DNA of 64,000 bases from Gemmatimonadales bacterium (GTDB lineage: Bacteria > Gemmatimonadota > Gemmatimonadetes > Gemmatimonadales > GWC2-71-9): NCBI GenBank assembly GCA_050183815.1, contig JBFXAY010000004.1, positions 67,051-131,050 of the forward strand. The letters run 5' to 3'. Under the pieces are notes generated by a model. It was not told the origin of the DNA and searched no databases. It saw nothing but the letters and a program-made list of their open reading frames with translations. The first letter of the stretch is position 1. The number at the start of each line of letters is the position of its first letter. Positions 408 to 62,581 of this stretch are shown one piece after another. Made by a program: the position numbers and the translations under genes.

Positions 408-2465
408 TTGTCCTCCACCATCAGAAGTGTGTCCACGCGCGCCTGCCCGAACTGCGGTAACCCGCTGCCCTCCGACGCCGCCTACTGTGACCAGTGCGGT
501 TCGGCCGGTCATACCCAGGTCATCGGCGGCACCGAGCAGACGGAGGCGGCGCTCGCCTCGAGCTACGTCAATCAGCCCGAACGGCTCCAGCGCGCGCTCG
601 GCGACCAGTTTGAGCTTGGCTCCCTGATCGGCCGCGGCGGCTACGCCGAGGTGTATGCGGTCCGGGACCGGAAGCTCAAGCGGGAGCTGGCGGTGAAGGT
701 GCTCCGGCCGGACCTGATCGTGACGCCGGCCCTGCTGGCGCGCTTCCGGCGCGAAGCGTTGTCGGTTGCGGCCCTTCAACACCCGGCCATCGTGCCGGTC
801 TTCGACGTCGGCGAACGGGACGGCATCTGCTACATCGTGATGCCGCTGATCCGGGGCGAGAGCCTCAAGGCGCTGCTCCAGCGGCAGCGCCGGATTCCTC
901 TCGACGAAGTCCAGCGCGTCGTCGGCGAGGCCGCGAGCGCGCTGGCGGTCGCGCACGAGGCCGGCGTCGTTCACCGCGACATCAAGCCGGAGAACATCCT
1001 CCTCGAGGGGCGCGAAGGCCATGTCCGGATCATGGACTTCGGCATCGCCAAGGCCGTCGACTCGAGCGAAAAAGAGCTCACCGGCACCGGAGTGGTCGTC
1101 GGCACACCCCAGTACATGAGCCCGGAACAGGCGAGCGGCGAGCCCAACATCGACCCGCGGAGCGACCAGTACTCGCTCGCGGTCGTCGCTTACCAGATGG
1201 TGGCCGGCCGGGCACCCTTCGACGGCGAAACGGCGCGGGCGATCATCGCGAAGCAGCTGCTCGACCTGCCGCCGGTCCTCGACCCCGTGGCGGACCGGGT
1301 GCCGCCTAACGTCGTCGCGGCGCTGCACCGGGCGATGCAGAAGCAGCCGGCCAACCGGTTCGCGAACATCCAGGAGTTCGCCGCAGCGCTCCGCGACCCG
1401 GATTACCGCAATCCGCCCGGACTGGGGGCGGACTCCACCAAGGCGGCCGCCGGCCGGCGCTGGACCCCGTGGCTGCTCGCCGGTGCCGCAGCCGGCGTGG
1501 TGGGCGTCATCGGATACACCCAGTTCGTCCGCCCGGACCTCGACCCGGCCCCGCCCCCGGCAACGATCGGCGCGCCCGGCAACGGTGGGGGCAACCTCGG
1601 CGCGCCCACCAGCCCGGCGGCCCCCACGACGCCGGCCGGTACGACGGCATCGACGCCCTCCGGTTCCAATCCCACGGCAGTCGTGCCACCACCGGCGCCG
1701 CCACGCCCCGACACCGGCAGCCGGCCGGCGGCCAATCCGACGTCGACCGCGCCGACGACACCGGACACCGGAACCGGGCTACTCCCCGAACCGCCCGCGC
1801 CGACGCCGAGTTGCGCGGTACTGGTCGACCAGCAGGACTGGACCCGGGCCCGGCAGCAATGCCAGGCCGAGGGTCAGGCAGGGAATCCGGCGGCGCTCCG
1901 GATCGCCGCGGAGATCCTGCTCGCCGGCCGCGGGCCGGTGCCCCGGGACGAGGCGCAGGCAGCGCAGTTGTACGAACAGGCCGCCGCCGCCGGCGACGCC
2001 GAGGCCCAGTTCTGGATGGGCAACCGGCTCGGCAACCGGGCTCCCACCGATGCAACGAACTGGTTCCTCGCGGCGGCGAGGCAAGGCCTCGCGAAGGCGT
2101 TCCCGCGCGTGGCCGAACGGCTCGACCGCGGCGTCGGCACCGCGGTCGATCGTCCGGCGGCGTTCCGGTGGTACGAGCGGGCGGCCAACGGGGGTGACGT
2201 GGCGAGCCAGCGCCGGGTGGCCGAGATGTACGGGGCCGGCGTCGGGGTCGGGAAGGACGAGGGGGCGGCGCGCCGCTGGTATGCCCGGGCGGCGGATCCG
2301 GCCGGGGGCAACGATCCCGAATCCCAGTATCAGCTCGCCCAGATGTTCTTCCGGGGGCGCGGCGGACCGAAGTCGGAAGCGGAGGGTCTCGCCTGGCTCC
2401 GGCGGGCCGCGGCGGGGGGACATGCCGAAGCGGCCCGGGAACTCGCCCGCCGCACGGATGCCTGA
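408..2465 (+). CDS. Ser/Thr protein kinase with N-terminal zinc ribbon, single TM helix, Pro/Thr-rich linker and extracytoplasmic Sel1 repeats
   Basis: Zinc ribbon CPNCG-x13-CDQCG. Hanks kinase motifs AVKVL, HRDIKPENILL, DFGIAK, GTPQYMSPE. TM segment WTPWLLAGAAAGVVGVIGYTQF. Low-complexity P/T/A region. C-terminal Sel1 repeats (AEAQFWMGNRL, VASQRRVAEMYGAGVGVGKDEGAARRWY, ESQYQLAQMFFRGRGGPKSEAEGLAWLRRAA). Confidence 0.9.
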   Translation: MSSTIRSVSTRACPNCGNPLPSDAAYCDQCGSAGHTQVIGGTEQTEAALASSYVNQPERLQRALGDQFELGSLIGRGGYAEVYAVRDRKLKRELAVKVLRPDLIVTPALLARFRREALSVAALQHPAIVPVFDVGERDGICYIVMPLIRGESLKALLQRQRRIPLDEVQRVVGEAASALAVAHEAGVVHRDIKPENILLEGREGHVRIMDFGIAKAVDSSEKELTGTGVVVGTPQYMSPEQASGEPNIDPRSDQYSLAVVAYQMVAGRAPFDGETARAIIAKQLLDLPPVLDPVADRVPPNVVAALHRAMQKQPANRFANIQEFAAALRDPDYRNPPGLGADSTKAAAGRRWTPWLLAGAAAGVVGVIGYTQFVRPDLDPAPPPATIGAPGNGGGNLGAPTSPAAPTTPAGTTASTPSGSNPTAVVPPPAPPRPDTGSRPAANPTSTAPTTPDTGTGLLPEPPAPTPSCAVLVDQQDWTRARQQCQAEGQAGNPAALRIAAEILLAGRGPVPRDEAQAAQLYEQAAAAGDAEAQFWMGNRLGNRAPTDATNWFLAAARQGLAKAFPRVAERLDRGVGTAVDRPAAFRWYERAANGGDVASQRRVAEMYGAGVGVGKDEGAARRWYARAADPAGGNDPESQYQLAQMFFRGRGGPKSEAEGLAWLRRAAAGGHAEAARELARRTDA

Positions 2466-38381: not shown

Positions 38382-38837
38382 TCAGCCGAGGGCCCGCCGC
38401 AGGCAGACCGCGGAAGCCGGGCAGAGCGCCGCGAACTCCGCCGACCGGCGGACGGCCTCCGGCGCCAGGTCGCGGCCAATGACTTCATAGCGGCGGCGGG
38501 CGAAGTAGTCCGCGGCGGTGGTGGTGAGCAGATACAGCGTTCCGATTCCGGTCGCGGCGGCATGGGCTTCCAGCGCGGTGACCAGGCGGCCGCCGATCCC
38601 GTGGGAGCGGCGATCCGGATCGACCGCGAGCGAGCGGAGCAGGCCGGCCGCTCCGTATCGTTCGAGCCCGATGGTGCCGATGACCCGGCCGCCCTCACGG
38701 GCAAGGAGGAAATCGGCAAGGGGCGGATGCAGGTCCGCCACCGGCAGCGCGTTGGCGGTCAGCAGGGCGGTTACGGCGCCGAAATCCTCGGCCCCGGCCG
38801 GGCCGATCGAAACCGGCGTTGTCGTCGAGTCGGTCAC
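38382..38837 (-). CDS. GNAT family N-acetyltransferase (ArsN2-like size/pattern)
   Basis: GTG 38837. RVIGTIGLERYG..GLLRSLAVDPDRRSHGIGGRLVTALE acetyl-CoA motif. 151 aa. Confidence 0.75.
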   Translation of the reverse strand: MTDSTTTPVSIGPAGAEDFGAVTALLTANALPVADLHPPLADFLLAREGGRVIGTIGLERYGAAGLLRSLAVDPDRRSHGIGGRLVTALEAHAAATGIGTLYLLTTTAADYFARRRYEVIGRDLAPEAVRRSAEFAALCPASAVCLRRALG

Positions 38838-38881
38838 GCGAGTCTCCCGAGGTCCGGGCGGAAGATAGCCCTTCGAACCGT

Positions 38882-39799
38882 TCAGCCCGCGTACAGGCTG
38901 CTCAGATACTTCATCCCGGAGTCGCAGGCGAGCGTCACCACCGTTCCCTCCGGACCGAGTCGCTCCGCCAGCCGGAGGGCAGCGGTCACGTTGGATCCCG
39001 TCGACGTGCCGGCGAAGATACCTTCCTCCCGGGCCAGCCGCCGGGCCATGGCGGCCGCGTCGTCCGAGGACACCAGCTGGATCTCGTCGGCAAGATCGTT
39101 CGACCAGAGGGGCATGACGAATCCGGGACCGGTGCCCTCGATCCGGTGCGAACCGGCGGCACCGCCAGACAGGACCGGCGACTCCGCCGGCTCGACGGCC
39201 ACGATCCGGATGCCGGCATGGTGGTGCCGCAGGCGGGTGGCGGTCCCCCGGATCGATCCGGCCGTTCCCACGGTCTGGACAAAGGCATTCGCCCGGCCGC
39301 CGGTCTGCTCCCAGATCTCGTCCGCCAGTGCCGCGTAACTCCCGGCCTGATCGGGATTGTGGAATTGGTTGGTCCAATACGAGCCCGGCGTTTCGGCCAG
39401 CCGGCGCGCCGTCTCGATCATCTCGAGGGTCAGTTCCCTCGTGGTGCCGCCCGTGGGACTCGGCACCAGGGTCAGCCGGGCGCCCAAGGCTTCCATGTGA
39501 GCGCGCTTTTCCCGGCTGAAGGCGTCGGAGGTGACGATCCGGAGCGGAATCCGCTTGACCGAGCAGACGAAGGCCAACGACACGCCGGTACTGCCGCCGG
39601 TGTACTCGACGACCGAACCTCCCGGGGCCAGCCGCCCGTCGGCTTCCGCAGCCGCCACCATGGCCAACGCCATCCGGTCCTTCATGCTGCCGGTCGGGTT
39701 CTCGCACTCGAGTTTGAGGAACACGCGGGCGGATCCGGCGGGAGCGACGTGACGCAGCGGCACCAGCCGGGTCCGGCCGATGGCGTCGAGCATGGACAT
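38882..39799 (-). CDS. cysK: Cysteine synthase / PLP-dependent beta-replacement enzyme (CysK/CysM family)
   Basis: PLP-lysine motif ENPTGSMKDR. GTGGS-type loop TVGTAGSIRG. 305 aa. Confidence 0.9.
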   Translation of the reverse strand: MSMLDAIGRTRLVPLRHVAPAGSARVFLKLECENPTGSMKDRMALAMVAAAEADGRLAPGGSVVEYTGGSTGVSLAFVCSVKRIPLRIVTSDAFSREKRAHMEALGARLTLVPSPTGGTTRELTLEMIETARRLAETPGSYWTNQFHNPDQAGSYAALADEIWEQTGGRANAFVQTVGTAGSIRGTATRLRHHHAGIRIVAVEPAESPVLSGGAAGSHRIEGTGPGFVMPLWSNDLADEIQLVSSDDAAAMARRLAREEGIFAGTSTGSNVTAALRLAERLGPEGTVVTLACDSGMKYLSSLYAG

Positions 39800-39824
39800 G
39801 GAAGCTCCCTATAACTGGAAACGA

Positions 39825-39855
39825 CGTCGGGCCCGCGCGATTCGCGGGCCCGACG
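39825..39855 (-). terminator. Strong GC hairpin (15-bp stem, 3-nt loop; or 13-bp stem, 5-nt loop) downstream of the small-ORF pair
   Basis: CGTCGGGCCCGCGCG-att-CGCGCGGGCCCGACG-type perfect inverted repeat. On the minus strand it is followed by UCGUUUCC. It sits between ORF 39924-40130 and the cysK start. Confidence 0.5.
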
Positions 39856-39923
39856 GCGTCCCGACCGGTGATCAACGGAATCCGCTGACCTCCACTAGTC
39901 AACGGGCCCCGGGTTGGTTCCGG

Positions 39924-40130
39924 TCAGAGGTTCCGGGGCGACGGCTCGAACGGGAACCCCCAGCGACGAAAGACGTCGCCAAGTTCTTCCACGCTGCCGA
40001 AGCGCCACTTCGTGCCGGTCGCCACATCCTCGACGACCCCGGTGAGGCGCATGCCCGGTCCGGCCCGCAAGGCCGTCGCCTGGAGCACGAAGTAACCGTG
40101 GCGGGCGGGGGGCGGCGATTCGGCGGTCAT
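39924..40130 (-). CDS. Small hypothetical protein (68 aa)
   Basis: ATG 40130. High GC3. Pattern GYFVLQ...G.RLTGVVEDVATGTKWRFGSVEELGDVFRRW resembles a recurring but unnamed small-protein motif (…[VL][ED][DN][VL].[ST]G....F.S..EL..[FL]). Confidence 0.4.
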   Translation of the reverse strand: MTAESPPPARHGYFVLQATALRAGPGMRLTGVVEDVATGTKWRFGSVEELGDVFRRWGFPFEPSPRNL

Positions 40131-40167
40131 GGCGTAGCGCCGGAACCGGGTCGGCTCCGCGCCGGCA

Positions 40168-40296
40168 TCAGCAGTTCCCACTTTCTTCGCAGTAGTTCGA
40201 CTCGGTCGGGTTCTTCTTGCAGGCCGTGGCCGTGGCCAGGAGCAGGCCGGCGAAGGCGAGCAGGAACAGGGACCGGGCGGCGAGACGCTTCAGCAT
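40168..40296 (-). CDS. Untracked 42-aa ORF: small Cys-rich lipoprotein/secreted peptide precursor
   Basis: Reverse strand reads GAGGAGG-ttccc-ATG CTG AAG CGT ... TGC TGA, giving MLKRLAARSLFLLAFAGLLLATATACKKNPTESNYCEESGNC. It has a strong SD, a signal peptide with lipobox-like ATAC and high GC3. It falls below the 60-aa cutoff of the ORF track. Confidence 0.45.
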   Translation of the reverse strand: MLKRLAARSLFLLAFAGLLLATATACKKNPTESNYCEESGNC

Positions 40297-40369
40297 GGGA
40301 ACCTCCTCGAGGGGATCTTTGCGTGGGGGCGGAACTCTCTAGCGTGCCCCGGTGGACGGTGACATCTTA

Positions 40370-40407
40370 GGAACGGACCATCGAACCTTCCGTTAGCCAG
40401 CCGTTAA
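40370..40407. promoter_or_regulatory. CCGTTA direct repeats at 11-bp phasing plus inverted AACGGA arm in the divergent intergenic region
   Basis: CCGTTA at 40390-40395 and 40401-40406 (exactly 11 bp apart). AACGGA (40372-40377) is the inverted copy of TCCGTT (40389-40394). The site lies between the small ORF start (40296) and the SARP gene GTG (40431). Confidence 0.3.
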
Positions 40408-40430
40408 CTCGCTGCTGTGCTTGGAGTTCA

Positions 40431-43400
40431 GTGCCAGCTCCCCACTCCCTTTTCTCGCTCGGCCGGACCGAGCTCACGACCCCGGACGGCGGCGGAGTTC
40501 GCCGGCGGAAAGAGCTGGCGCTGCTCGCCTACCTGGCCCGCCGGGCGCCGCGACCGATCGAGCGCGACCGGGCCATGACCCTCCTCTGGGGCGACCGGCC
40601 CGATGCCAAGGCACGGACGTCGTTCCGGCAGGCGGTCTTCGAAATCCGAACGGCGATCGGCGACGCGCTCGTGGCCTCCGCCACCGAGGTGTCGGTCGAC
40701 CCGGCGCTGCTGGCGCTCGACGCGAATGACTTCGAAGCCGACTGCGCCGCCGGCCGGTTCCGAGACGCCGTGGCCCGGTGGCAGGGGTCCTTCCTTGCCG
40801 GGCTCGACGATCTCGGGTCCGAAGACTGGCGGCTCTGGCTCGAAGGCGAAAGAGCGGCCCTCGCCGTCGCGATGATCCGGGCGCTCGAACACCTCGGCGC
40901 GGCCGCCGAAGCGGGAGGAGACTGGTCCGCCGTCGCAGCGCTGGCCGAACGTCAGTACGAACTGGACCGGAGCGACGACACCGGGCGGCGAATGGTCTCG
41001 GCGCTGCGCCGTGCCGGACAGGACTCCCGCGCTGCCGCCGCGGAGGCTCGCCTGCAACTCGGCGGCGCCGGCCCGGCGGCCGCCGGACCCCGGGCGGCGA
41101 CCCGCGGACTCATCACCCCGGACCTGATGGGACGAACCGGCGCTCTCGGCGTCCTGCGCCGGGCCCGCGCCGAGGTAGCGAGTCACACCGGCGCAGCCGC
41201 AGGCCGGGTGATCGTGATCGATGGACCGGCGGGCATGGGCAAGAGCCGGCTCATTGCCGAGTTCGCGCGCGAACTGGCGGCCGCCTCCCCCGGCCCGACG
41301 GTGCTCACCGCGCGGGCGTTCGGCTCGCAGCGGGAGCGGCGGTGGTCCGCGCTGCAACCGTTGCTGGGCACGGCGGCACTCACGGCCAAGGGCATCGCGG
41401 CGGTGCCGCCGGAGCAACTCGCGCAGTTGAGCGACGTCGTTCCCGAATTGCGCGAACGCTTCCCGCGGTTGCCGCCGGCCGCGCCGGGCGCCGACCTGCG
41501 GTCAACGGCCGCCCGGCTGCTGGCGGAATCCGCGGCCGAGCATCCGCTGGTCCTGCTGGTGGACGACGCGCCGGACGCCGACGCCGAATCCGAGGCGGTG
41601 CTCGGAACCCTGGCCCGGCAGGCGCCGCCGGGGTTCCTGCTCGTGCTGGCCGGCCGCTCCGACGGGTGGGCGCGGTCGGCGCTGACGCCCGACCTCCGCC
41701 GGGGCGGCACCGAGGTGCAGTGGCTGACGCTCCCGCCGCTCACCGAAACCGAGACGGCGGGACTGATTGCCTCCACCGCGACGTTCGCGCCCGCCGCGAC
41801 CGCCGCGCTGGCCGCGCGGCTCCACGGGCTCGCGGCCGGCGTTCCCGGCCTCGTCCACTCGCTCCTCGGGCAATTGGCCGAGGCCCGCCTGATCGGGCCC
41901 GATGCCGACGGCGCCTGGACCATTCGCGGCGATCTCGACACCATCGTCCTCGGCGGCGACGCCGACGAGCGGCTGCTGGGCGGTCTGGCCGACCTGACCC
42001 CGGCCGCCCGCCGGCTGCTCGACCTGAGCGCGATCCTCGGCCCCCGGATCGATACCGCCATCCTCGAGCGAGCCGCCCGGCTCGACACCGACACCTTCGG
42101 GCCGGCGTTAGGCATGCTCCTCGCCGGCCGGCATCTCCGCCAGCCGCCCCTGGCGCCCGATCAGGTCGAGTTCTCGAGCGAGATCGCCCGGCGGGCGGTG
42201 GCCGGCGCGCTCCCCCCGAGCGCCCGGAGGGCACTCCATCGGGAGGCGGCGAGAGCCTACGGGCGCTCGGCCGATCCGCGGCGGCGGGCCGAATCGGAGC
42301 GGCACCGGGCGGCGGCCGGGGCGAGCCGCTTCCGGATCCGGGTCGCGGTTGCCGTGGTAACGATCGCGCTCGCCGCGGCGGCGTGGTGGCAATTCGGGCC
42401 GCGGCCGTCGCGACCCGTCGCCCCGGGGACGCCGGTCCTCCTCGCGGACGTGGCCAACCAGACCGACGAGCCGCTCTTCGAAGGCTCTCTGACCGTCGCG
42501 GCCCAGGTGGCCCTGCAGGAGGCCCGGCGTTTCTGGGTGGTGCCGCGGTGGCAGGTTCTGGAAGCGCTTGCCCGGATGAACCGGACCGACACGACCGCGA
42601 CCCTTCGCGGGGAGCTGGCCCGCGAGGTGGCGCTGCGGGAGAACGTCCCGCTGATCATCGAGATGGACGTAGCCCGGCGGGCCGACGGCTATCTGGTGAC
42701 CGCGCGCTTGATCGACGCCAAGCTCGGCAGCGACGCGGCGAGCTTCGTGGCGCGGCCGGCGCGGCGCGACGAGGTGATCGACGCCGTCGGTGAGGTCGTC
42801 TCGCGCATCCGCGACCGGCTGGGCGAGGCCCGGATCCGGCCCGATTCCATGAGCCGTCTGGCCCGGGTGACGACCGGTTCGCTCGAAGCGCTGCAGCAGT
42901 ACTCCCTCGGCGCCATTGCGTGGGACCGGCGGGAATTCGACAAGGCCGCCGGCTACTGGCGCCGGGCGACCGAGATCGACTCCGCGTTCGCGATGGCGTA
43001 TGCGCGCCTCGCGACGTTTTCGCTCTGGCTCGAGAACAACCGCCCCCGGGCCGTGACGTGGCTCGCGGCCGCCGAACGCCACGCTGCGGCGATGACGGAA
43101 CCGGAGCGGCTGATTCTCGCAGGCGTCCGGGCCACCGTGGCCGGTGACCAGTTCGCCGCGGTCACCGCCGACCAGATGCTGGCCGAGCGATACCCGACGC
43201 CGGACAATCTCTTCAACCTGGCCACGACGATGTTCCGGGCGGGGCGGTGCGCGGACGCGGTGCCGGTCTTCCACCGCGCGGCCGCCCTGCGACCGAGCGC
43301 CTCCGTCTGGATCAACCTGGCCACCTGCTACCAGGTCCTCGACAGTCTCGAGCCGGCTCTCGAGGCCTACCGGCGCGCCGGCACGGCGGACTCGGTCATT

Positions 43401-44261
43401 CTGTTCAGCGCCAACATCAATCAGGAATACGGCCTGCTCTTCCTGCGGGCCGGCCGTCCGGAAGCGGCCGAATCGGTCTTTCGCCGGATGGCGGCGCGGC
43501 CGGATCCGTCAAGCCAGGGCCGCGGCTACCGGTCGCTGGCGTTCCTGGCGAGCTACCAGGGCCGGTACCGCGACGCCCTGGCAGCGCTGGAGCAATCGCT
43601 CAGCCGGTACCGCAGCCGGGGCGCGCCGCTGTCGGTGTTCCGCACGTTGCTGCTGGCCGCGCAGAGTGCGGCCTCGCTGGGCGACGCCACCGCATCGGCC
43701 GAATTCCTTGCTCAGGCCCGCACCGTCATCGGCACGCAACCCCTGGAGCCCGTATACCTCGACCGGATCGCCGCCGCCCACCTGCGGCTCGGCGACCGCC
43801 GCGGCGCCGGGTACTGGGAGCGCCGGCTTCGCCGCGAGGTGCTCGCGGGCAACCGGGCCGACAGCGTCCAGATCAGACTCACCGCCGCCCGGTTCGCGGT
43901 CGCCGGCGGTCAGGCGCGCGAGGCGCTCCGGTTGCTCGCGGTCGGGCCGGATCTCGCGCCGGCGCTCCTGGGCCCGTATGCGATCGTCAGCGGGAAGGCC
44001 TACGCCGCGCTCGGCCGGGCCGATTCCGCCCTGATGGCGTGGGAGCGAGCGCGGGTCTGGTGGGGCGGCGGATCGGAAACCCAGGACGAGTGGGAGCGAC
44101 TTCCCCTTTCGATGGCCAGCGCGGCTCTGGTCGCCGGGGACACGGCCCGGGCCCGGGACCTCCTCGCGGTGCTGGTGCGGCGCTGGGAGCGGGCGGATTC
44201 GGCCGCTCCCGACGTGGCCCGGGCGCGGCTGCTCTTCGGGCGGCTGGAGCCCGGGCACTGA
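40431..44261 (+). CDS. SARP-type regulator (wHTH + BTAD) fused to P-loop NTPase, TM helix, periplasmic alpha/beta module and long TPR array
   Basis: wHTH RRKELALLAYLA..LLWGDRPDAKARTSFRQAVFEIR. BTAD helices. Walker A GPAGMGKSRL and Walker B-like LVLLVDDAPDAD. TM IRVAVAVVTIALAAAAWWQF. PVLLADVANQTDEPLFEGSL...YLVTARLID module. At least 8 TPR-like repeats to the C-terminus. Confidence 0.85.
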   Translation: MPAPHSLFSLGRTELTTPDGGGVRRRKELALLAYLARRAPRPIERDRAMTLLWGDRPDAKARTSFRQAVFEIRTAIGDALVASATEVSVDPALLALDANDFEADCAAGRFRDAVARWQGSFLAGLDDLGSEDWRLWLEGERAALAVAMIRALEHLGAAAEAGGDWSAVAALAERQYELDRSDDTGRRMVSALRRAGQDSRAAAAEARLQLGGAGPAAAGPRAATRGLITPDLMGRTGALGVLRRARAEVASHTGAAAGRVIVIDGPAGMGKSRLIAEFARELAAASPGPTVLTARAFGSQRERRWSALQPLLGTAALTAKGIAAVPPEQLAQLSDVVPELRERFPRLPPAAPGADLRSTAARLLAESAAEHPLVLLVDDAPDADAESEAVLGTLARQAPPGFLLVLAGRSDGWARSALTPDLRRGGTEVQWLTLPPLTETETAGLIASTATFAPAATAALAARLHGLAAGVPGLVHSLLGQLAEARLIGPDADGAWTIRGDLDTIVLGGDADERLLGGLADLTPAARRLLDLSAILGPRIDTAILERAARLDTDTFGPALGMLLAGRHLRQPPLAPDQVEFSSEIARRAVAGALPPSARRALHREAARAYGRSADPRRRAESERHRAAAGASRFRIRVAVAVVTIALAAAAWWQFGPRPSRPVAPGTPVLLADVANQTDEPLFEGSLTVAAQVALQEARRFWVVPRWQVLEALARMNRTDTTATLRGELAREVALRENVPLIIEMDVARRADGYLVTARLIDAKLGSDAASFVARPARRDEVIDAVGEVVSRIRDRLGEARIRPDSMSRLARVTTGSLEALQQYSLGAIAWDRREFDKAAGYWRRATEIDSAFAMAYARLATFSLWLENNRPRAVTWLAAAERHAAAMTEPERLILAGVRATVAGDQFAAVTADQMLAERYPTPDNLFNLATTMFRAGRCADAVPVFHRAAALRPSASVWINLATCYQVLDSLEPALEAYRRAGTADSVILFSANINQEYGLLFLRAGRPEAAESVFRRMAARPDPSSQGRGYRSLAFLASYQGRYRDALAALEQSLSRYRSRGAPLSVFRTLLLAAQSAASLGDATASAEFLAQARTVIGTQPLEPVYLDRIAAAHLRLGDRRGAGYWERRLRREVLAGNRADSVQIRLTAARFAVAGGQAREALRLLAVGPDLAPALLGPYAIVSGKAYAALGRADSALMAWERARVWWGGGSETQDEWERLPLSMASAALVAGDTARARDLLAVLVRRWERADSAAPDVARARLLFGRLEPGH

Positions 44262-57228: not shown

Positions 57229-59766
57229 TTACGGCGGCGGGGCCGTTCCCGCGAGTCGGTCGAGCGCGGCCTGATCGCCCTGCCCGCGATAGATCTCGCC
57301 CAGGTCGCCCCGAATGGCGGTGACCCAGGACGAGGCCGGGCCCGCCTGCGCCAGCGCGATGGCCAGGGCCCGTTCCGATTCCACCCGGGCCTCGGTGTAA
57401 CGCCGCTGCCGCAGCAAGGCGCGCCCGATCTTCAAGCGGGCGATTCCGACGTTGAGATGGTCGGCCGGCAGGGTGGCTTCGAAGGTCGCCACCGCCCGGC
57501 GCGCCTGGCGTTCGGCCTCGGCCGGCTGCCCTTTGGCGAGATAGACGCTGGCCAGTCCCGATTCCGCCGTCCCGGCGTACTGATGGGGGCCGGGATAGGC
57601 CCGGCCGTAGACCTCGATAGCGGCCGTGAACAACGACTCGGCGGCGGCGAGCCGTTGCCGGCCGAAGGCGATGTTGGCGAGTTCGCTCAACATCAACCCC
57701 ACGCGGGGATGATCGGGCCCGAGAATCCGGCGGCGAATGGCCAGCGCCCGCCGGATCAGCGAGTCCGCTTCGTCGGACCGGCGCTGCAGCAGCGCCACCC
57801 GGCCCAGCATCGACACCGTCCCCGCCGTGCGCAGGTGATCCGGGCCGTACCAGCGTTCCATCACGTCGGAGCCCCGGCGGTAGAGCGACTCCGCCGCGGC
57901 CAGGTTGCCCCGGTCCTGTTCGATCGCGCCGAGGTTGATGATCACGTCCGCAACCCGCGGATGGCCGTCGCCATAGGTGCGGTTCCAGATCGCGAGGACT
58001 CGTCGATTGAGCGTCTCGGCGCTGTCGAGTTCGCCGGCGTAGTAGAAGTTGTTGGCCAGCGAGTACCACCGGGGCGCCAGTTCGGCCGTCGTATCAGCAC
58101 CCGGGCCGCCGATCGCGATGGCTCGCTGCAGCGCGGCGATCGCCTCGGGGTACCGGCCCGCCAGCTCGAGCACCTCCGCCAGTGCTTCATAGCCTTCCGC
58201 CACTCGGGGCGACGCGGGACCGGCGGTGCGGGTCAGCATCGCGATGCCTTCCCGGACGAGAGAGTCCGCTTCCGGGAACCGTGCCTGCTCCGCCCGAAGC
58301 AGGCCCAGCGCCGTGAGCCCGCCGGCCAGGGCGCGATCATCGTCGGCCGGATCCGCCCGGCGGCGCGCGAGCGAGAGTTGCAGCAACGAGTCCGCCCGGT
58401 CGAGACGGCCGAGCTGGCGCGACACGGTTCCAAGGGTCTCGTAGAGATCCGCCTGGAGTGCCGGCTCACTGCCCAGGGTGGCGGCCTCCTCCACCCCGCG
58501 GTCGACCAGCGTCACGACGCGGAGGCTGTCGGTGGGACCGGCGGACTCGTCACCGCCCTGGAAGAGGTCGACCAGCATGCGCTGAAGCCGGGTGGCGCGG
58601 CTCGCCTCCGCCACCGCGGCGGTGCGGGCCCGCGCCAGTCCGATCGTGTAGCTCGCCGCCGCGGCACCGGCCGCGACCAGGCCCACGGCGGCGATCGCGA
58701 TCCGCCGGGACCGCCGGCGCCAGAGCTTGCGAAGGCGGTCGGCCACGCCGACCGAGCGCTCGAGCGGCAGCTCGCGAAGCAGGCGGTCGAGATCGCGCTC
58801 GAGCGCTTCGACGGACGGGTACCGGGCGGCCGGATCGGCGGCCAGGGCCGTCCGGCAGATCGACTCGAGGTCGCGCTGGTCGAGCGACCCGTCCCCCGGC
58901 GCCGGTGGCCACGGCGGCGTGCCGGCGTTGGCGGGTCGGCGGCCGGTCACCAGTTCGTGGAGCAGTACGCCGAGGGAATAGACATCGCTCGAGACACTGG
59001 CCGGTTCGCCTCGGAGCTGCTCGGGTGCGGAGTACGCCGGGGTGAGGGCCCGGGCGCCGTCCGCGCCGGGGTCCGCGTCGGCTTCCGCAACGCCGAAATC
59101 GATGAGTTTGACCGCGCCGGCGGAGGTCACCAGCACGTTCGAGGGCTTGAGGTCGCGGTGGATGACCAGCTGCCGGTGAGCGTAGCCGACGGCATCGCAC
59201 ACGAGGCGGAAGAGGCGGACGCGTTCGCGCAGCGACGCGCCGGTCTCGGCGCAGTGGGCCGGCAACGGCTTTCCGTCCACCAGTTCCAGGGCGAACCACG
59301 GAGCGCCGTCCGGGTCGGTGCCGGCGTCGAACAATTGGGCGATCCCCGGATGCCGGAGCCGGGCAAGCACTCGCCGCTCCTGGAGAAACCGGCGGGTGGC
59401 GTCTGCCGAGAGGGGATCGCGCAGCACCTTGAGCGCGACCTGGGCCCCGACGTCCTCGCGATGCGCCAGGTAGACGACGCCCATGCCGCCCGCCCCGAGG
59501 ACGCCGGTGATCCGGTAGGGCCCGAGCTGGCTGCCGATGCGGTCCGCCGGTTCGCCCAGCAGGGCGCCTGCCGCGGCCGCCACGCCGCCGGTCGTCGGGC
59601 CGGTGGCGGCGTCCTCGTCGGCGGCGAGGAGCCGTTCCACGGCGGCCACCAGCTCGCTATCGCCGGCCGCTCGCTCGATCAGGAAGGCGCGGCGGCGTCC
59701 AGGCGGGAGTTCGAGCGCGGCATGAAAGAGCGTCTCGATCGCGGCGGCACGGTCCGGCCGCGTCAT
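57229..59766 (-). CDS. Ser/Thr protein kinase with TM helix and extracytoplasmic TPR array
   Basis: ALKVL, HRDLKPSNVLV, DFGVAE, YSAPEQ. TM IAIAAVGLVAAGAAAASYTIGL. About 450 aa of TPR_12-type repeats. N-terminal leader AAIETLFHAALELPPGRRRAFL...LVAAVERLLAADE. Confidence 0.9.
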   Translation of the reverse strand: MTRPDRAAAIETLFHAALELPPGRRRAFLIERAAGDSELVAAVERLLAADEDAATGPTTGGVAAAAGALLGEPADRIGSQLGPYRITGVLGAGGMGVVYLAHREDVGAQVALKVLRDPLSADATRRFLQERRVLARLRHPGIAQLFDAGTDPDGAPWFALELVDGKPLPAHCAETGASLRERVRLFRLVCDAVGYAHRQLVIHRDLKPSNVLVTSAGAVKLIDFGVAEADADPGADGARALTPAYSAPEQLRGEPASVSSDVYSLGVLLHELVTGRRPANAGTPPWPPAPGDGSLDQRDLESICRTALAADPAARYPSVEALERDLDRLLRELPLERSVGVADRLRKLWRRRSRRIAIAAVGLVAAGAAAASYTIGLARARTAAVAEASRATRLQRMLVDLFQGGDESAGPTDSLRVVTLVDRGVEEAATLGSEPALQADLYETLGTVSRQLGRLDRADSLLQLSLARRRADPADDDRALAGGLTALGLLRAEQARFPEADSLVREGIAMLTRTAGPASPRVAEGYEALAEVLELAGRYPEAIAALQRAIAIGGPGADTTAELAPRWYSLANNFYYAGELDSAETLNRRVLAIWNRTYGDGHPRVADVIINLGAIEQDRGNLAAAESLYRRGSDVMERWYGPDHLRTAGTVSMLGRVALLQRRSDEADSLIRRALAIRRRILGPDHPRVGLMLSELANIAFGRQRLAAAESLFTAAIEVYGRAYPGPHQYAGTAESGLASVYLAKGQPAEAERQARRAVATFEATLPADHLNVGIARLKIGRALLRQRRYTEARVESERALAIALAQAGPASSWVTAIRGDLGEIYRGQGDQAALDRLAGTAPPP

Positions 59767-60400: not shown

Positions 60401-62581
60401 ATGAGGCAACCAATGACTCAGGTTCGGAACGACGGGCGGGGCAACCGGCGCACCGTGAGGCAGGTCGATGGCCGGTTTCCGGCCTATGGGTCGGCACTAG
60501 CCGTCGCTACGAGCATCCTGGCGATGGCGTGTGGCGGCGGGCCCGGCGAGCCGACGGTGCCACCACCACCACCGCCGCCACCGCCGCCACCCGCGATCAT
60601 CTCGGTCACGCTGTCGCCGCCGACGCTGACACTCGACATCGGGGCCACCGGCCAACTGGCCGTCGTCGTGGCAACGAGCGCGGGTCCCGTTGCCAACCCC
60701 ACGGTGACGTGGCGCTCCACGGCTCCGGCGGTGGCGACGGTTGCCGCAGCCGGTGCGAACGCGACCGTCACCGGTGTTACGGCGGGCGCCGCCCGGATCG
60801 TGGCCACGTCGGGTACCCTTGCCGATACGACCGACGTGACCGTCAACGCCGGCGGCCCCCCCGCATTTCCGACCTTCGACTGGCGCGTCATTGGCGCGAC
60901 CTCGACGGTCGGTGCCAGGGGCAGCGATCGCTGGGTAGCGATGACCACCGCGAAAGCCTACGGCAGCACCGACGGGGCCGCCTGGCGCCCGCCCCTGACC
61001 CTCGGCGCCTGGGGCCCGAGCGACGCGCTCTGGAACGGAACCCGCTTCGTGGCCATCGGGGCGGGCGGCGTTCGGGCCAGCGACGACGGCAATGCCTGGA
61101 CGGCAGCCATCGGTATCGGCCAGGCGCCAGGAACCGCCACCGGCAAGTTCTCCGTCGCCTGGACCGGCGCCATCCACGTCGCGAGCGACGCCGGCCGCCT
61201 CTATACCAGCTCGGACGGCCTGACCTGGCAGCTGCTCACCACGGCCCCGGCCGGCGCGGTGACCGACCTGATCTGGACCGGGACCCTCCTCGCCGGGAAT
61301 ACCGGCGGCGTGATCACCACCGGCGTCGTCGTCAGCGCGGACACCGGCAGGACCTGGGCCGCGAGCCCCGGCCTCTCGGGCGACCTGCAATCGGCCGGTC
61401 TCTACTGGGACGGCACCCGGTTCCTCAAATGGCGGGGCCGGAATCTCGGGACCAGTCCCAACGGCCTGGCCTGGACCGAGACGCCGACCACCATCAACTG
61501 GCCAGTGTCCGGACCGGCCGGGGTGTCGGCGCCGATCGAGGACCTCACGTTCAACGGCACGAAGTACTATGCCCTGGCGCACCGCACCCTGAGTGGCGTG
61601 GTGATCGACGGCGGCGCGATTCTCGAGAGCGCCGACGGGTTCACCTGGACCGAACTCGACACGAGCATCCACGGCTCCCTGAAAACCTTCGCGTCCGGAC
61701 CGGGCGGATCGCTGATGGCCTTCGGCGGCGCAACGCTGCAGACGGCCGACGGGAGTTCCTGGGCGATGCGGATGGTGGACTTCCGCGGGGGGCAGTGGCC
61801 GGTGACCTGGTCGATCGACCGATGGCTCGCGCTCGAGCCCCGGGCGCTGCTCGTGAGTCTCGACGGCGTCACGTGGCGGCGCTACGCGTTCGACCTCACC
61901 TCGACGCCCTGGGCGGCCACCTGGACCGGGAGCGTCTACGTCGTCGGCGGCGATCAGGGCCGGGTCATCACCAGTCCCGACGGCCTCCTCTGGACCGCGC
62001 GGAGCGTCGGCATGAGCGACAACGTGCGGGATCTGATCTGGGCGGGCGGACGACTCGTGGCGTTGGGCCAGCAGGGCTCGGTCACCAGCAGCACCGACGG
62101 CAGCACCTGGTCGCCGCGCGCGGTGGCAACGCGCCAGTTCTCCGACCTCGAGTGGACCGGCACCCGCTATGTGATCGCCGCGGGCGACCTGACCTACGTG
62201 AGTGCCGACGCGCTCACCTGGCAGGCCTCGGCCGCGACCCCGTCGCCGGTGTCCCGGATCGTCTGGAACGGAAGCGAACTGCGCGGCTTCAATCACTTCC
62301 GCGTGTCGCGCTCGACCGACGGATTGAGCTGGACGCTGGAGGGGGACATCGACGCGATCGGCAACCAGCTCAAGCTGGAATCGGCGGCCTGGCTTGGCGA
62401 CGTCTACGTCAGCTGCCAGACGCTCTCCTCCAACCTGCTCTACAGCGCCGATCTCCGGCACTGGTTCCCGGCCCCGACACCCGAGCCGCTCACCGCACCC
62501 TGCAACGCGCTCGGCTGGAACGGAACCGATCTGCTGACGGAAATCGGGTTCGGGCTGAGCCGGGGAATCCGGACGAACTAG
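60401..62581 (+). CDS. Lipoprotein: poly-Pro stalk + Big_2 domain + ~13-blade Asp-box (BNR/Ycf48-like) beta-propeller region
   Basis: Lipobox ILAMACGG. 11 consecutive Pro (60560-60592). Big_2 (ISVTLSPPTLTLDIGATGQL...). 13 S-x-D-G-x-x-W boxes (STDGAAW, SDDGNAW, SSDGLTW, SADTGRTW, SPNGLAW, SADGFTW, TADGSSW, SLDGVTW, SPDGLLW, STDGSTW, SADALTW, STDGLSW, SADLRHW) alternating with W-x-G motifs. Confidence 0.75.
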   Translation: MRQPMTQVRNDGRGNRRTVRQVDGRFPAYGSALAVATSILAMACGGGPGEPTVPPPPPPPPPPPAIISVTLSPPTLTLDIGATGQLAVVVATSAGPVANPTVTWRSTAPAVATVAAAGANATVTGVTAGAARIVATSGTLADTTDVTVNAGGPPAFPTFDWRVIGATSTVGARGSDRWVAMTTAKAYGSTDGAAWRPPLTLGAWGPSDALWNGTRFVAIGAGGVRASDDGNAWTAAIGIGQAPGTATGKFSVAWTGAIHVASDAGRLYTSSDGLTWQLLTTAPAGAVTDLIWTGTLLAGNTGGVITTGVVVSADTGRTWAASPGLSGDLQSAGLYWDGTRFLKWRGRNLGTSPNGLAWTETPTTINWPVSGPAGVSAPIEDLTFNGTKYYALAHRTLSGVVIDGGAILESADGFTWTELDTSIHGSLKTFASGPGGSLMAFGGATLQTADGSSWAMRMVDFRGGQWPVTWSIDRWLALEPRALLVSLDGVTWRRYAFDLTSTPWAATWTGSVYVVGGDQGRVITSPDGLLWTARSVGMSDNVRDLIWAGGRLVALGQQGSVTSSTDGSTWSPRAVATRQFSDLEWTGTRYVIAAGDLTYVSADALTWQASAATPSPVSRIVWNGSELRGFNHFRVSRSTDGLSWTLEGDIDAIGNQLKLESAAWLGDVYVSCQTLSSNLLYSADLRHWFPAPTPEPLTAPCNALGWNGTDLLTEIGFGLSRGIRTN
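60878..62578 (+). repeat. ~13 tandem Asp-box blade repeats (~45 aa each) within the propeller ORF
   Basis: There is a regular spacing of S-x-D-G-x-x-W and [LV]-x-W-[TDN]-G-[TS] motifs through aa ~160-725. Confidence 0.65.

What the first reader, a model, noticed from the sequence alone, without database searches (positions are those of the whole stretch)
40168..40296. Unlisted 42-aa ORF encoding a Cys-rich lipoprotein-like peptide, divergent from the SARP-TPR regulator
The ORF lies on the minus strand and falls below the 60-aa cutoff of the ORF track. A canonical GAGGAGG sits 5 nt upstream of an ATG that opens MLKRLAARSLFLLAFAGLLLATATAC|KKNPTESNYCEESGNC*. Codon third positions are G/C-biased like real genes here. 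The N-terminus is a textbook signal peptide with a lipobox-like A-T-A-C. The predicted mature product is only 17 residues, and two further Cys spaced C-x6-C could form a disulfide loop. A tiny exported peptide encoded next to a membrane regulator with a periplasmic TPR domain is the layout expected for a cognate peptide-signal/receptor pair. TPRs are classical peptide binders. Alternatively it could be a small lipopeptide product controlled by the SARP. This is the most attractive lead for a new system, but it rests on inference.
Basis: inference. Interest (0 to 1): 0.65.

Follow-up and report, generated by a model that had tools for sequence, protein, structure and literature searches.

The report
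Conserved tiny lipoprotein-like gene under SARP promoter
The 42-codon reading frame is a real, evolutionarily conserved gene for a very small exported (probably lipid-anchored) three-cysteine peptide in a Gemmatimonadales bacterium, and it is most likely switched on by the neighbouring membrane-anchored regulator rather than being that regulator's proven signal.

Summary
The ORF at 40168..40296 (-) is there as described: GAGGAGG 5 nt before the ATG, GC3 0.88. One correction: the last two Cys are C-x5-C, not C-x6-C. It is a real gene. A scan of 1.8 billion proteins found one true homolog, 43 aa, with the same start, lipobox, three Cys and GNC stop. The mature part is 13/17 identical and dN/dS is 0.18. 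That homolog also sits next to a regulator of the same family. Ten orthologous loci share a promoter just upstream of the first gene beside the regulator. It has TAACGG repeats 11 bp apart, a degenerate third unit, 7-8 bp, then a TAnnnT -10. This is the published SARP-box layout. The regulator's N-terminus matches EmbR and AfsR, and it has one transmembrane helix followed by a 614-aa outside TPR part. The peptide is therefore best read as the first cistron of a short regulator-activated operon: peptide, a conserved 68-aa "HGYFVLQ" protein, then a hairpin. Only 2 of 11 regulator lineages carry the peptide (2 of the 4 closest). The others have large Ig-like lipoproteins in its place. The "cognate signal for the TPR" idea is thus neither supported nor excluded. 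Lipidation is predicted, not shown.

The parts
40168..40296 (-). 42-codon gene including the stop. Signal peptide codons 1-25 lie at 40222..40296. The lipobox is A-T-A-C. The predicted mature 17-mer CKKNPTESNYCEESGNC lies at 40171..40221.
   Evidence: sequence, GC3 0.88. (phmmer homolog P0042, E 1.8e-7). (dN/dS 0.32 overall, 0.18 in the mature part). (unique in the window; shuffles 0-0.17). (tblastn coordinates of the mature part).
40302..40308 (-). Shine-Dalgarno sequence GAGGAGG, 5 nt upstream of the ATG.
   Evidence: The homolog keeps GAGG 8 nt upstream of its ATG.
40364..40369 (-). Predicted -10 hexamer TAAGAT. There is no -35 consensus.
   Evidence: a TAnnnT hexamer is conserved at the same alignment position in 9 of 10 loci; no full sigma-70 consensus, as expected for an activator-dependent promoter.
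40378..40406 (-). Candidate SARP box. Units TAACGGC (40400..40406) and TAACGGA (40389..40395) are 11 bp apart. A degenerate third unit TCGATGG (40378..40384) ends 8 bp from the -10.
   Evidence: the exact TAACGG-N5-TAACGG occurs once in the window. (conserved in 10 loci; the repeat sequence co-varies, e.g. TTTGGCG x3 in L019). (published SARP promoter rule). (caveat: the within-locus repeat statistic is significant only in L019).
39924..40130 (-). Second cistron: a 68-aa 'HGYFVLQ' small protein with no signal peptide. It starts 37 nt after the peptide stop.
   Evidence: GC3 0.84, and orthologs lie beside the regulator in L009, L010/L011, L012, L013, L018, L019 and L021; no Pfam, PDB or Foldseek match; predicted three strands plus a helix, pLDDT 76.
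39818..39862 (-). GC-rich hairpin with a 13-bp perfect inner stem. It is the likely end of the peptide-HGYFVLQ transcription unit.
   Evidence: MFE -77.1 kcal/mol for the 141-nt spacer, z = -5.3, 0 of 200 shuffles as stable. The consensus terminator scan did not call it because the U-tract is weak.
40431..44261 (+). Divergent 1276-aa regulator. The SARP domain covers about residues 8-232. AAA_16/STAND covers 233-405 and beyond. The TM helix is residues 636-657 (42336..42401). The extracytoplasmic TolB-like/TPR part is residues 658-1276.
   Evidence: Pfam. (partial TIGR04510 match over residues 638-1178, below cutoff). (hydropathy and charge). (ortholog profile hits EmbR 2fez at 1.3e-16 and AfsR 8k60 at 9.4e-9). 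(orthologs in Gemmatimonadales MAGs).

Best explanation
The ORF is a genuine, translated small gene. Its product has a Sec-type signal peptide ending in a conserved ATAT(A/G)C site. Most likely it is processed as a lipoprotein. That would leave a 17-residue peptide anchored by its N-terminal Cys, with a basic KK start, an acidic middle and a C-terminal C-x5-C pair able to close a 7-residue disulfide loop. It is the first cistron of a compact unit of about 550 nt: promoter, peptide, 68-aa HGYFVLQ protein, hairpin. The promoter has no -35 element but has 11-bp-phased direct repeats ending 8 bp from a -10. It is therefore probably activated by the SARP domain of the adjacent membrane-anchored SARP-STAND-TPR regulator when that regulator's outside domain senses its still unknown cue. 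This is analogous to AfsR activating the neighbouring small gene afsS. In related loci the same promoter drives large Ig-like lipoproteins, so the peptide is one of several interchangeable envelope 'cargo' genes of this module. Shown here: the ORF features, its conservation under purifying selection, the linkage to the regulator family, the conserved promoter architecture and the SARP homology. Inferred: transcription start, activation by this regulator, lipidation, the disulfide, and what the peptide does in the envelope.
For: - **Real gene.** A strong SD and GC3 of 0.88. It is the only short lipobox+SD+GC3 ORF in the window, against 0-0.17 in shuffles.
- **One full-length homolog among 1.84e9 proteins.** P0042 is 43 aa, E 1.8e-7. 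It has the identical MLK start, ATATxC site, three Cys and GNC stop.
- **Purifying selection.** dS is about 1.1 and dN/dS is 0.32, or 0.18 in the mature part. One Ser codon changes AGT<->TCC. The mature part is 13/17 identical, while the adjacent regulator C-termini are 53% identical. Similarity stops at the ORF ends.
- **Linkage.** The homolog lies 156 nt after the 3' end of a regulator of the same family.
- **Promoter.** A conserved block of repeats, 7-8 bp and TAnnnT is present in 10 loci, with a repeat sequence that co-varies. It matches the published SARP rule of 11-bp spacing with the 3' repeat 8 bp from the -10 (PMC10936776, PMC10972967).
- **Regulator.** The ortholog profile hits the SARP domains of EmbR and AfsR.
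- **End of the unit.** A hairpin with z = -5.3.
- **Lipoproteins with Ala at -3** are common among the neighbouring orthologous big lipoproteins: ATGC, AAAC, AIAC.
Against: - There are no expression, translation or lipidation data.
- The family has only two known members, so conservation rests on a single pairwise comparison.
- In the window only two repeats are perfect and the third unit is degenerate. The within-locus repeat statistic is not significant on its own (42 of 500 shuffles reach it).
- The transcription start is unmapped.
- The lipobox lacks the usual L/V/I at -3 and equally fits an A-x-A signal-peptidase-I site, so the peptide could be soluble.
- Most orthologous modules lack the peptide, so it is dispensable for the module.
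- The function in the envelope is not identified.
Confidence: 0.6

Rival explanations
1. Cognate ligand or co-sensor. The exported peptide binds the extracytoplasmic TolB-like/TPR domain of the adjacent regulator. The regulator in turn activates the peptide's promoter, giving an autoregulatory peptide/receptor loop.
For: - In both known cases the peptide gene is the first gene behind the regulator's putative target promoter, next to a regulator of this family.
- The TPR part is predicted to be outside the cell, where the peptide would be.
- TPR domains are known to bind short, often C-terminal acidic peptides (general knowledge). The conserved ...EESGNC-COOH tail is acidic.
Against: - Only 2 of the 4 closest regulator lineages (52-61% identical C-termini) and 2 of 11 overall have the peptide.
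- No analogous short lipobox ORF exists in the other loci.
- A lipid-anchored peptide is not diffusible.
Confidence: 0.15
2. Detached lipid anchor or disulfide partner. The peptide supplies a membrane anchor and two free Cys that disulfide-link an Ig-like envelope protein. This is comparable to the small Cys-rich lipoprotein OmcA encoded with the large Cys-rich OmcB in Chlamydia.
For: - In L015/L016 the peptide is followed 39 nt later by a Big_1-type protein.
- That protein is the only one of eight orthologous 'big' proteins without a lipobox Cys (…AAVTDCENC…). It instead has a C-x2-C right after its signal peptide. The other seven all carry a lipobox.
- The L009 ortholog carries an anchor Cys plus CDPEANGC in a single chain.
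Against: - The correlation rests on one locus.
- The window has no big partner in the operon, only HGYFVLQ. No ortholog of the L015/L009 protein was found in the window beyond generic Ig-repeat similarity.
- Homology between the peptide loop and the L009 N-terminus cannot be established for such short segments.
Confidence: 0.12
3. Soluble secreted peptide. Signal peptidase I cleaves after A-T-A (or A-T-G in the homolog) and releases a free 17-mer with three Cys, which could act as a signal, a metal binder or an antimicrobial.
For: Ala at -3 and Ala/Gly at -1 fit the A-x-A rule, and the -3 position is not the canonical L/V/I of lipoboxes.
Against: A Cys exactly at +1 is conserved in both members, and the sequence passes the PROSITE-type lipoprotein rule. 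Neighbouring orthologous large lipoproteins use the same A-[TAI]-[GA]-C type of site.
Confidence: 0.1
4. Non-functional leftover or purely regulatory upstream ORF. It would be the 5' stump of a lost large lipoprotein gene, or a leader ORF whose translation, not its product, matters for the downstream HGYFVLQ gene.
For: The slot between the promoter and HGYFVLQ holds large lipoprotein genes in relatives. L010 shows a decayed lipoprotein there: a 61-aa lipobox ORF frameshifted into an 89-aa C-terminal fragment.
Against: - The peptide coexists with an intact big gene in L015.
- Length, start, stop and all three Cys are conserved, with dN/dS 0.18 in the mature part and saturated dS.
- The downstream gene differs between the two loci, HGYFVLQ versus the big protein, so there is no constant gene to attenuate.
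Confidence: 0.05

Closest known systems
AfsR -> afsS of Streptomyces coelicolor (large SARP with NOD and TPR domains activating the adjacent small-protein gene through the afs box)
   Same: The N-terminal SARP domain is homologous (profile E 9.4e-9 to AfsR 8k60 and 1.3e-16 to EmbR 2fez). A STAND/AAA_16 domain and TPRs follow it. The adjacent target encodes very small proteins. The promoter has 11-bp-phased direct repeats close to a -10 and no good -35.
   Different: Here a transmembrane helix splits the protein and puts the TPR part outside the cell. The organism is a Gemmatimonadales MAG, whereas a review calls SARPs exclusive to actinobacteria. The target products, an exported Cys peptide and the HGYFVLQ protein, show no similarity to AfsS. 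No antibiotic gene cluster is nearby.
ToxR/ToxS-, TcpP/TcpH-, PsaE/PsaF-type membrane-bound one-component regulators with a small periplasmic partner
   Same: A winged-helix DNA-binding domain is tethered to the membrane by one helix, with an outside sensing part. A small exported protein is encoded next to it.
   Different: This regulator is about 1276 aa, with BTAD and STAND modules and a 614-aa TPR ectodomain. The small gene has its own activator-type promoter and is absent from most orthologous loci. No homology to ToxS, TcpH or PsaF was found.
Very small bacterial lipoproteins (entericidins EcnA/EcnB, LptM/YifL, Lpp)
   Same: A precursor of about 40-50 aa with a signal peptide, a lipobox Cys and a short mature chain.
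   Different: There is no sequence match to any Pfam or NCBIfam family. The mature chain is only 17 residues, with two extra conserved Cys and a C-terminal Cys. It is linked to a SARP-type regulator.
Chlamydial OmcA/OmcB (small Cys-rich lipoprotein encoded with a large Cys-rich envelope protein)
   Same: In L015 a tiny Cys-containing lipoprotein gene directly precedes a large exported protein that has N-terminal Cys but no lipobox.
   Different: There is no homology. The window itself lacks the large partner. Disulfide cross-linking is untested.
RRNPP-type peptide/TPR-receptor quorum sensing (Rap-Phr, PlcR-PapR, PrgX)
   Same: A small exported peptide is encoded next to a TPR-containing transcription regulator.
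   Different: RRNPP receptors are cytoplasmic and bind re-imported processed peptides. Here the TPRs are extracytoplasmic, the peptide is probably lipid-anchored, and the pairing is not conserved across orthologs.

Membership tests
Bacterial lipoprotein precursor (Sec/SPII; PROSITE PS51257-type rule) | K/R in the first 7 residues, an uncharged hydrophobic stretch, then [LIVMFWSTAG]2-[LIVMFYSTAGCQ]-[AGS]-C with the Cys at position 15-35 | tested here: met
   The regex implementation matches both P0001 (Cys26) and P0042 (Cys26).
Bacterial lipoprotein precursor (Sec/SPII; PROSITE PS51257-type rule) | Strict lipobox with L/V/I at -3 ([LVI][ASTVI][GAS]C) | tested here: not met
   The -3 residue is Ala in both members (A-T-A-C and A-T-G-C). 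The same Ala at -3 occurs in the neighbouring orthologous large lipoproteins of L012, L013 and L019.
Bacterial lipoprotein precursor (Sec/SPII; PROSITE PS51257-type rule) | Diacylglyceryl modification and LspA cleavage, or a SignalP 6/LipoP SPII call | not testable with these tools
   No signal-peptide predictor and no experiment were available.
SARP-activated promoter (SARP box) | Direct repeats spaced by 11 bp (or 22 bp) | tested here: met
   TAACGG-N5-TAACGG lies at 40390..40406. The equivalent repeats are conserved and co-vary in 10 loci. The rule is quoted from PMC10936776.
SARP-activated promoter (SARP box) | The 3' repeat lies 8 bp from the -10 element | tested here: inconclusive
   The third 11-bp-phased unit (TCGATGG) ends 8 bp from TAAGAT in the window and 7 bp in the other loci. 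That unit is degenerate in the TAACGG-type loci and the -10 and TSS are only predicted.
SARP-activated promoter (SARP box) | An adjacent regulator with a SARP domain (OmpR-type DNA-binding domain plus BTAD) | tested here: met
   The ortholog profile hits EmbR 2fez at 1.3e-16 over positions 8-232 and AfsR 8k60 at 9.4e-9. Trans_reg_C gives a weak hit in the window protein. PF03704 BTAD is present in the orthologs.
SARP-activated promoter (SARP box) | Demonstrated binding and activation by the regulator | not testable with these tools
   This needs EMSA, footprinting or reporter assays.
Peptide-signal / TPR-receptor pair (RRNPP-like or other cognate pair) | The peptide gene co-occurs with the receptor across orthologs | tested here: not met
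   The peptide is present in the window and L015/L016 only. It is absent in L009, L010/L011, L012, L013, L018, L019, L020 and L021.
Peptide-signal / TPR-receptor pair (RRNPP-like or other cognate pair) | Physical binding of the peptide to the TPR domain | not testable with these tools
   Only single chains drawn from the window or the search results can be modelled.
Known small-protein families (entericidin PF08085 and any other Pfam/NCBIfam model) | A significant profile match | tested here: not met
   There were no hits at E <= 0.01. The best hit was DUF6658 at E 0.051, over the signal peptide only.
RiPP precursor | A conserved adjacent maturase or modifying enzyme | tested here: not met
   The downstream cysK-like and ArsN2 genes are not found in any related locus. 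In L015 the neighbours are the regulator and an Ig-like protein.

The most novel reading that the evidence does not exclude
The lipid-anchored, disulfide-looped 17-mer is the extracytoplasmic ligand or co-sensor of the TolB-like/TPR ectodomain of a membrane-anchored SARP-STAND regulator that activates the peptide's own promoter. This would be a self-contained lipopeptide/one-component autoregulatory circuit in Gemmatimonadota, a mode of SARP control not described so far.
Probability: 0.12. Interest if true: 0.75.

Novelty: new variant of a known kind. Interest (0 to 1): 0.45.

Why it matters
The finding turns a sub-threshold ORF into a defined small-protein family, although one with only two members. 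It is a probable 17-residue lipopeptide with a conserved Cys pattern. It also places that gene in a recurring, uncharacterised Gemmatimonadales module. The module consists of a large SARP-type activator split by a membrane helix with its TPRs outside, a conserved SARP-box promoter, a universal 68-aa partner protein, and interchangeable envelope lipoproteins. A 2024 review describes SARPs as actinobacterial, cytoplasmic antibiotic regulators. A membrane-tethered version that controls envelope proteins in another phylum would broaden that picture. It also offers a compact promoter/regulator/peptide set that is easy to test in a heterologous host.

Tried and rejected
- **Peptide homolog searches.** The word-index protein search with the peptide, and with the two-member alignment, found only the two known members. 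The metagenome DNA scan with the peptide alignment returned only the already known JGI contig.
- **Genome-collection scan.** The peptide therefore could not be scanned there.
- **Family and RNA scans.** Pfam and NCBIfam gave nothing for the peptide or for HGYFVLQ. Rfam gave nothing over 39500..40800.
- **HGYFVLQ structure.** The single-sequence model (pLDDT 76) had no significant Foldseek or PDB match.
- **ECF-sigma promoter reading (AAC-N16-CGT).** Rejected, because the CGT is not conserved in L015 or L009 while TAnnnT is.
- **'Stump of a lost big lipoprotein'.** Rejected, because the peptide coexists with the intact big gene in L015 and shows purifying selection.
- **RiPP reading.** Rejected for lack of any conserved maturase.
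- **Triple-repeat self-similarity.** As a stand-alone statistic it is significant only in L019. The promoter claim therefore rests on cross-locus conservation.
- **Literature.** Searches found no description of a membrane-anchored SARP or of TIGR04510.

Full report
**1. Observation**

The minus strand of 40168..40296 reads GAGGAGG, TTCCC, then ATG and 42 codons to TGA. The product is MLKRLAARSLFLLAFAGLLLATATACKKNPTESNYCEESGNC.
- The ATG is the first possible start in the frame.
- GC at codon positions 1/2/3 is 0.53/0.51/0.88. The sliding frame plot puts the high-GC phase on this ORF's third position. For the overlapping 196-aa plus-strand ORF that phase would be the second position.
- I scanned the whole window for 25-80 aa ORFs that pass a PROSITE-style lipoprotein rule, have a 5-mer SD and have GC3 >= 0.85. 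This is the only one. Thirty dinucleotide shuffles gave a mean of 0.17 ORFs with lipobox+SD and 0 with all three features.
- One detail of the finding is wrong: the last two Cys are C-x5-C (C36, C42), not C-x6-C.
- Public gene callers already predict the ORF (P0001; the L014 gene list).

**2. Is it a real gene?**

Pfam and NCBIfam give nothing for the peptide. A word-index search found only the query itself.

A full phmmer pass over 1.84 billion representative proteins found one full-length relative, P0042. It is 43 aa, E 1.8e-7: MLKNIVVRALIAVLLVGLIAATATGCKKKMPTESEYCSESGNC. The remaining hits are repeat proteins matching low-complexity stretches.

The two peptides share the MLK start, the ATAT(A/G)C site, all three Cys and the terminal ESGNC stop. 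The hydrophobic core of the signal peptide has diverged.

At the codon level, dS is about 1.1 (saturated). dN/dS is 0.32 overall and 0.18 in the mature part, and one Ser is encoded AGT in one gene and TCC in the other. Similarity stops at the stop codon.

The mature peptide is 13/17 identical. The neighbouring regulators are 53% identical over their last 145 residues.

This is the signature of a protein-coding gene whose mature product is under selection. The weakness is that the family has only two members. An alignment-based protein search and a JGI metagenome DNA scan added none.

**3. Organism and regulator**

Named hits place the window in a Gemmatimonadales MAG. The divergent gene at 40431..44261 encodes 1276 aa.
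- Pfam finds a weak Trans_reg_C hit, AAA_16/STAND and TPRs.
- A profile of 11 orthologs hits the SARP domains of EmbR (2fez, 1.3e-16, positions 8-232) and AfsR (8k60, 9.4e-9).
- Hydropathy shows a single transmembrane segment at residues 636-657, with net +3 on the N-side and -3 on the C-side. The 614-residue TolB-like/TPR part is therefore predicted to be extracytoplasmic.
- That part matches the C-terminal two thirds of NCBIfam TIGR04510, below the curated cutoff.

A 2024 review describes SARPs as exclusive to actinobacteria and lists no membrane-spanning type.

**4. Comparative context**

I fetched contigs for nine orthologous regulators at 56-36% identity, plus the two short contigs carrying P0042.

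Three things recur.

(a) A 64-94-aa protein with the motif (R)HGYFV(L/V)Q…G(V/I)(V/L)ENL(A/T)TG(D/E)K…F…EL…W is encoded in the operon next to the regulator. This holds in the window (39924..40130) and in L009, L010/L011, L012, L013, L018, L019 and L021.
- It has no signal peptide and no Pfam, PDB or Foldseek match.
- The single-sequence model has three strands plus a helix, pLDDT 76.

(b) A large lipoprotein with Ig-like (Big_1/Big_2) repeats usually shares that operon, before or after the small protein.
- In L010 the lipoprotein is decayed: a 61-aa lipobox ORF is frameshifted into an 89-aa C-terminal fragment.

(c) A conserved promoter block lies upstream of the first operon gene.

The peptide occurs only in the window and in L015/L016.
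- In L015/L016 it lies 156 nt downstream of the regulator's stop on the same strand. A Big_1 protein follows 39 nt later.
- tblastn and a lipobox-ORF scan found no equivalent in the other loci.
- By C-terminal identity, the window, L009, L010 and L015/16 regulators form one clade at 52-61%. Two of these four lineages have the peptide.

**5. The promoter**

The window reads GTTAACGGCTGGCTAACGGAAGGTTCGATGGTCCGTTCCTAAGAT on the minus strand. It has TAACGG twice, 11 bp apart (40390..40406). A third 11-bp-phased unit, TCGATGG, follows, then 8 bp, then TAAGAT (40364..40369).
- The same block aligns in all ten loci.
- The repeat sequence changes with the lineage: TAACGG in the close clade, TTTGGCG x3 in L019, TTGAC-type in L020 and TTCAC-type in L021. 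A TAnnnT hexamer at a fixed 7-8 bp distance is kept in nine of the ten loci; L020 aligns CACGAT there.
- There is no -35 consensus.
- The exact double repeat occurs once in 64 kb.
- Published work states that SARP targets carry direct repeats spaced 11 or 22 bp apart, with the 3' repeat 8 bp from the -10. Several have three heptamers with 4-nt spacers.

Caveats apply. The third unit is degenerate in the TAACGG-type loci. A within-locus repeat statistic is significant only in L019. No start site is mapped.

An ECF-type reading (AAC-N16-CGT) is not conserved.

**6. The transcription unit**

The HGYFVLQ gene starts 37 nt after the peptide stop. Beyond its stop lies a hairpin with a 13-bp GC stem at 39818..39862 (z = -5.3; 0 of 200 shuffles fold as well). 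After that comes a cysK-like gene with its own SD.

The cysK-like and ArsN2 genes are not found in any related locus, so they are not part of the module. Rfam finds no RNA family in the region.

**7. Interpretation**

Best supported: the peptide is a genuine small exported protein, probably lipidated at Cys26. It is expressed as the first cistron of a short operon that the adjacent membrane-anchored SARP-type regulator activates. This resembles AfsR activating the adjacent small gene afsS.

In relatives the same promoter drives large envelope lipoproteins. The peptide therefore looks like one variant of the module's envelope output.

What it does there is open. The options are:
- a ligand or co-sensor for the regulator's ectodomain (not excluded, but the peptide is absent from most orthologous modules);
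- a separate lipid anchor or disulfide partner for an Ig-like protein. In L015 the adjacent big protein is the only one of eight that lacks a lipobox Cys and instead starts with C-x2-C. However, the window has no such partner in the operon;
- a soluble peptide, if signal peptidase I cleaves the A-x-A site.

A dead remnant or a mere leader ORF is unlikely given the selection pattern and the different downstream genes in the two loci.

**8. Verdict**

The regulator description is largely right. The 'product controlled by the SARP' reading is favoured over the 'cognate signal' reading.

Novelty is moderate. The peptide belongs to an unannotated two-member small-protein family, inside an uncharacterised module that is a membrane-tethered variant of the SARP paradigm outside actinobacteria. 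No function has been demonstrated.

Noticed in passing
window 39924..40130 (-); L009 2387..2608, L012 4680..4895, L013 3316..3522, L018 2233..2517, L019 121..333, L021 3605..3859: A small cytoplasmic protein family (64-94 aa, motif HGYFV(L/V)Q…GVxENLxTGxK…F…EL…W) is the most constant partner of this regulator family. It has no Pfam, PDB or Foldseek match. The predicted fold is three strands plus one helix. It may be the functional analogue of AfsS, or a co-regulator.
   Followed up: partly
window 40431..44261 (+), TM at 42336..42401: A large SARP (SARP + STAND + TPR) is interrupted by one transmembrane helix, so the TPR part is predicted to be outside the cell. Orthologs are confined to Gemmatimonadales-type MAGs in the searches made. 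A review calls SARPs exclusive to actinobacteria.
   Followed up: partly
L015 608..1585 and L016 778..1533: The Big_1 protein that follows the peptide homolog lacks a lipobox Cys (…GAAVTDCENC…). All seven other orthologous big proteins have one. This may indicate a division of labour between the peptide and the big protein.
   Followed up: partly
L010 285..665 and 464..649 (-): The lipoprotein gene in the operon slot is decayed. A 61-aa ORF with the lipobox LGVITGC is frameshifted into an 89-aa fragment homologous to the C-terminal domain of the L009 and L012 lipoproteins.
   Followed up: partly
L013 678..3149 (-): In one paralogous module, HGYFVLQ is followed by a 65-aa ORF, two ATP-grasp ligase genes (RimK/GSH-S-like and LdmS_N) and an SBP_bac_5 gene. 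This may be a peptide-ligation cassette under the same regulator type.
   Followed up: no
window 57229..59766 (-) and 60401..62581 (+): An 845-aa Ser/Thr kinase with a TM helix and TPRs lies divergent from a 726-aa lipoprotein (lipobox, poly-Pro, Big_2-like repeat). This parallels the pairing of a TPR membrane sensor with an Ig-like lipoprotein seen in the SARP module.
   Followed up: no
window 39818..39862 (-): A very stable GC hairpin (13-bp perfect stem, z = -5.3) lies between the HGYFVLQ stop and the cysK-like start. The consensus terminator scan missed it because the U-tract is weak.
   Followed up: yes
window 42342..43964 (+) (regulator residues 638-1178): The ectodomain matches NCBIfam TIGR04510 'putative peptide modification system cyclase' (E 3.4e-42; 145 bits against a cutoff of 400) over that model's TM/TPR part only. 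No literature on that family was found.
   Followed up: partly
window 38382..39799 (-): A cysteine-synthase-family PLP enzyme (below the equivalog cutoffs) and an ArsN2-type N-acetyltransferase (above the cutoff) lie just downstream of the operon. They are not conserved in related loci.
   Followed up: yes
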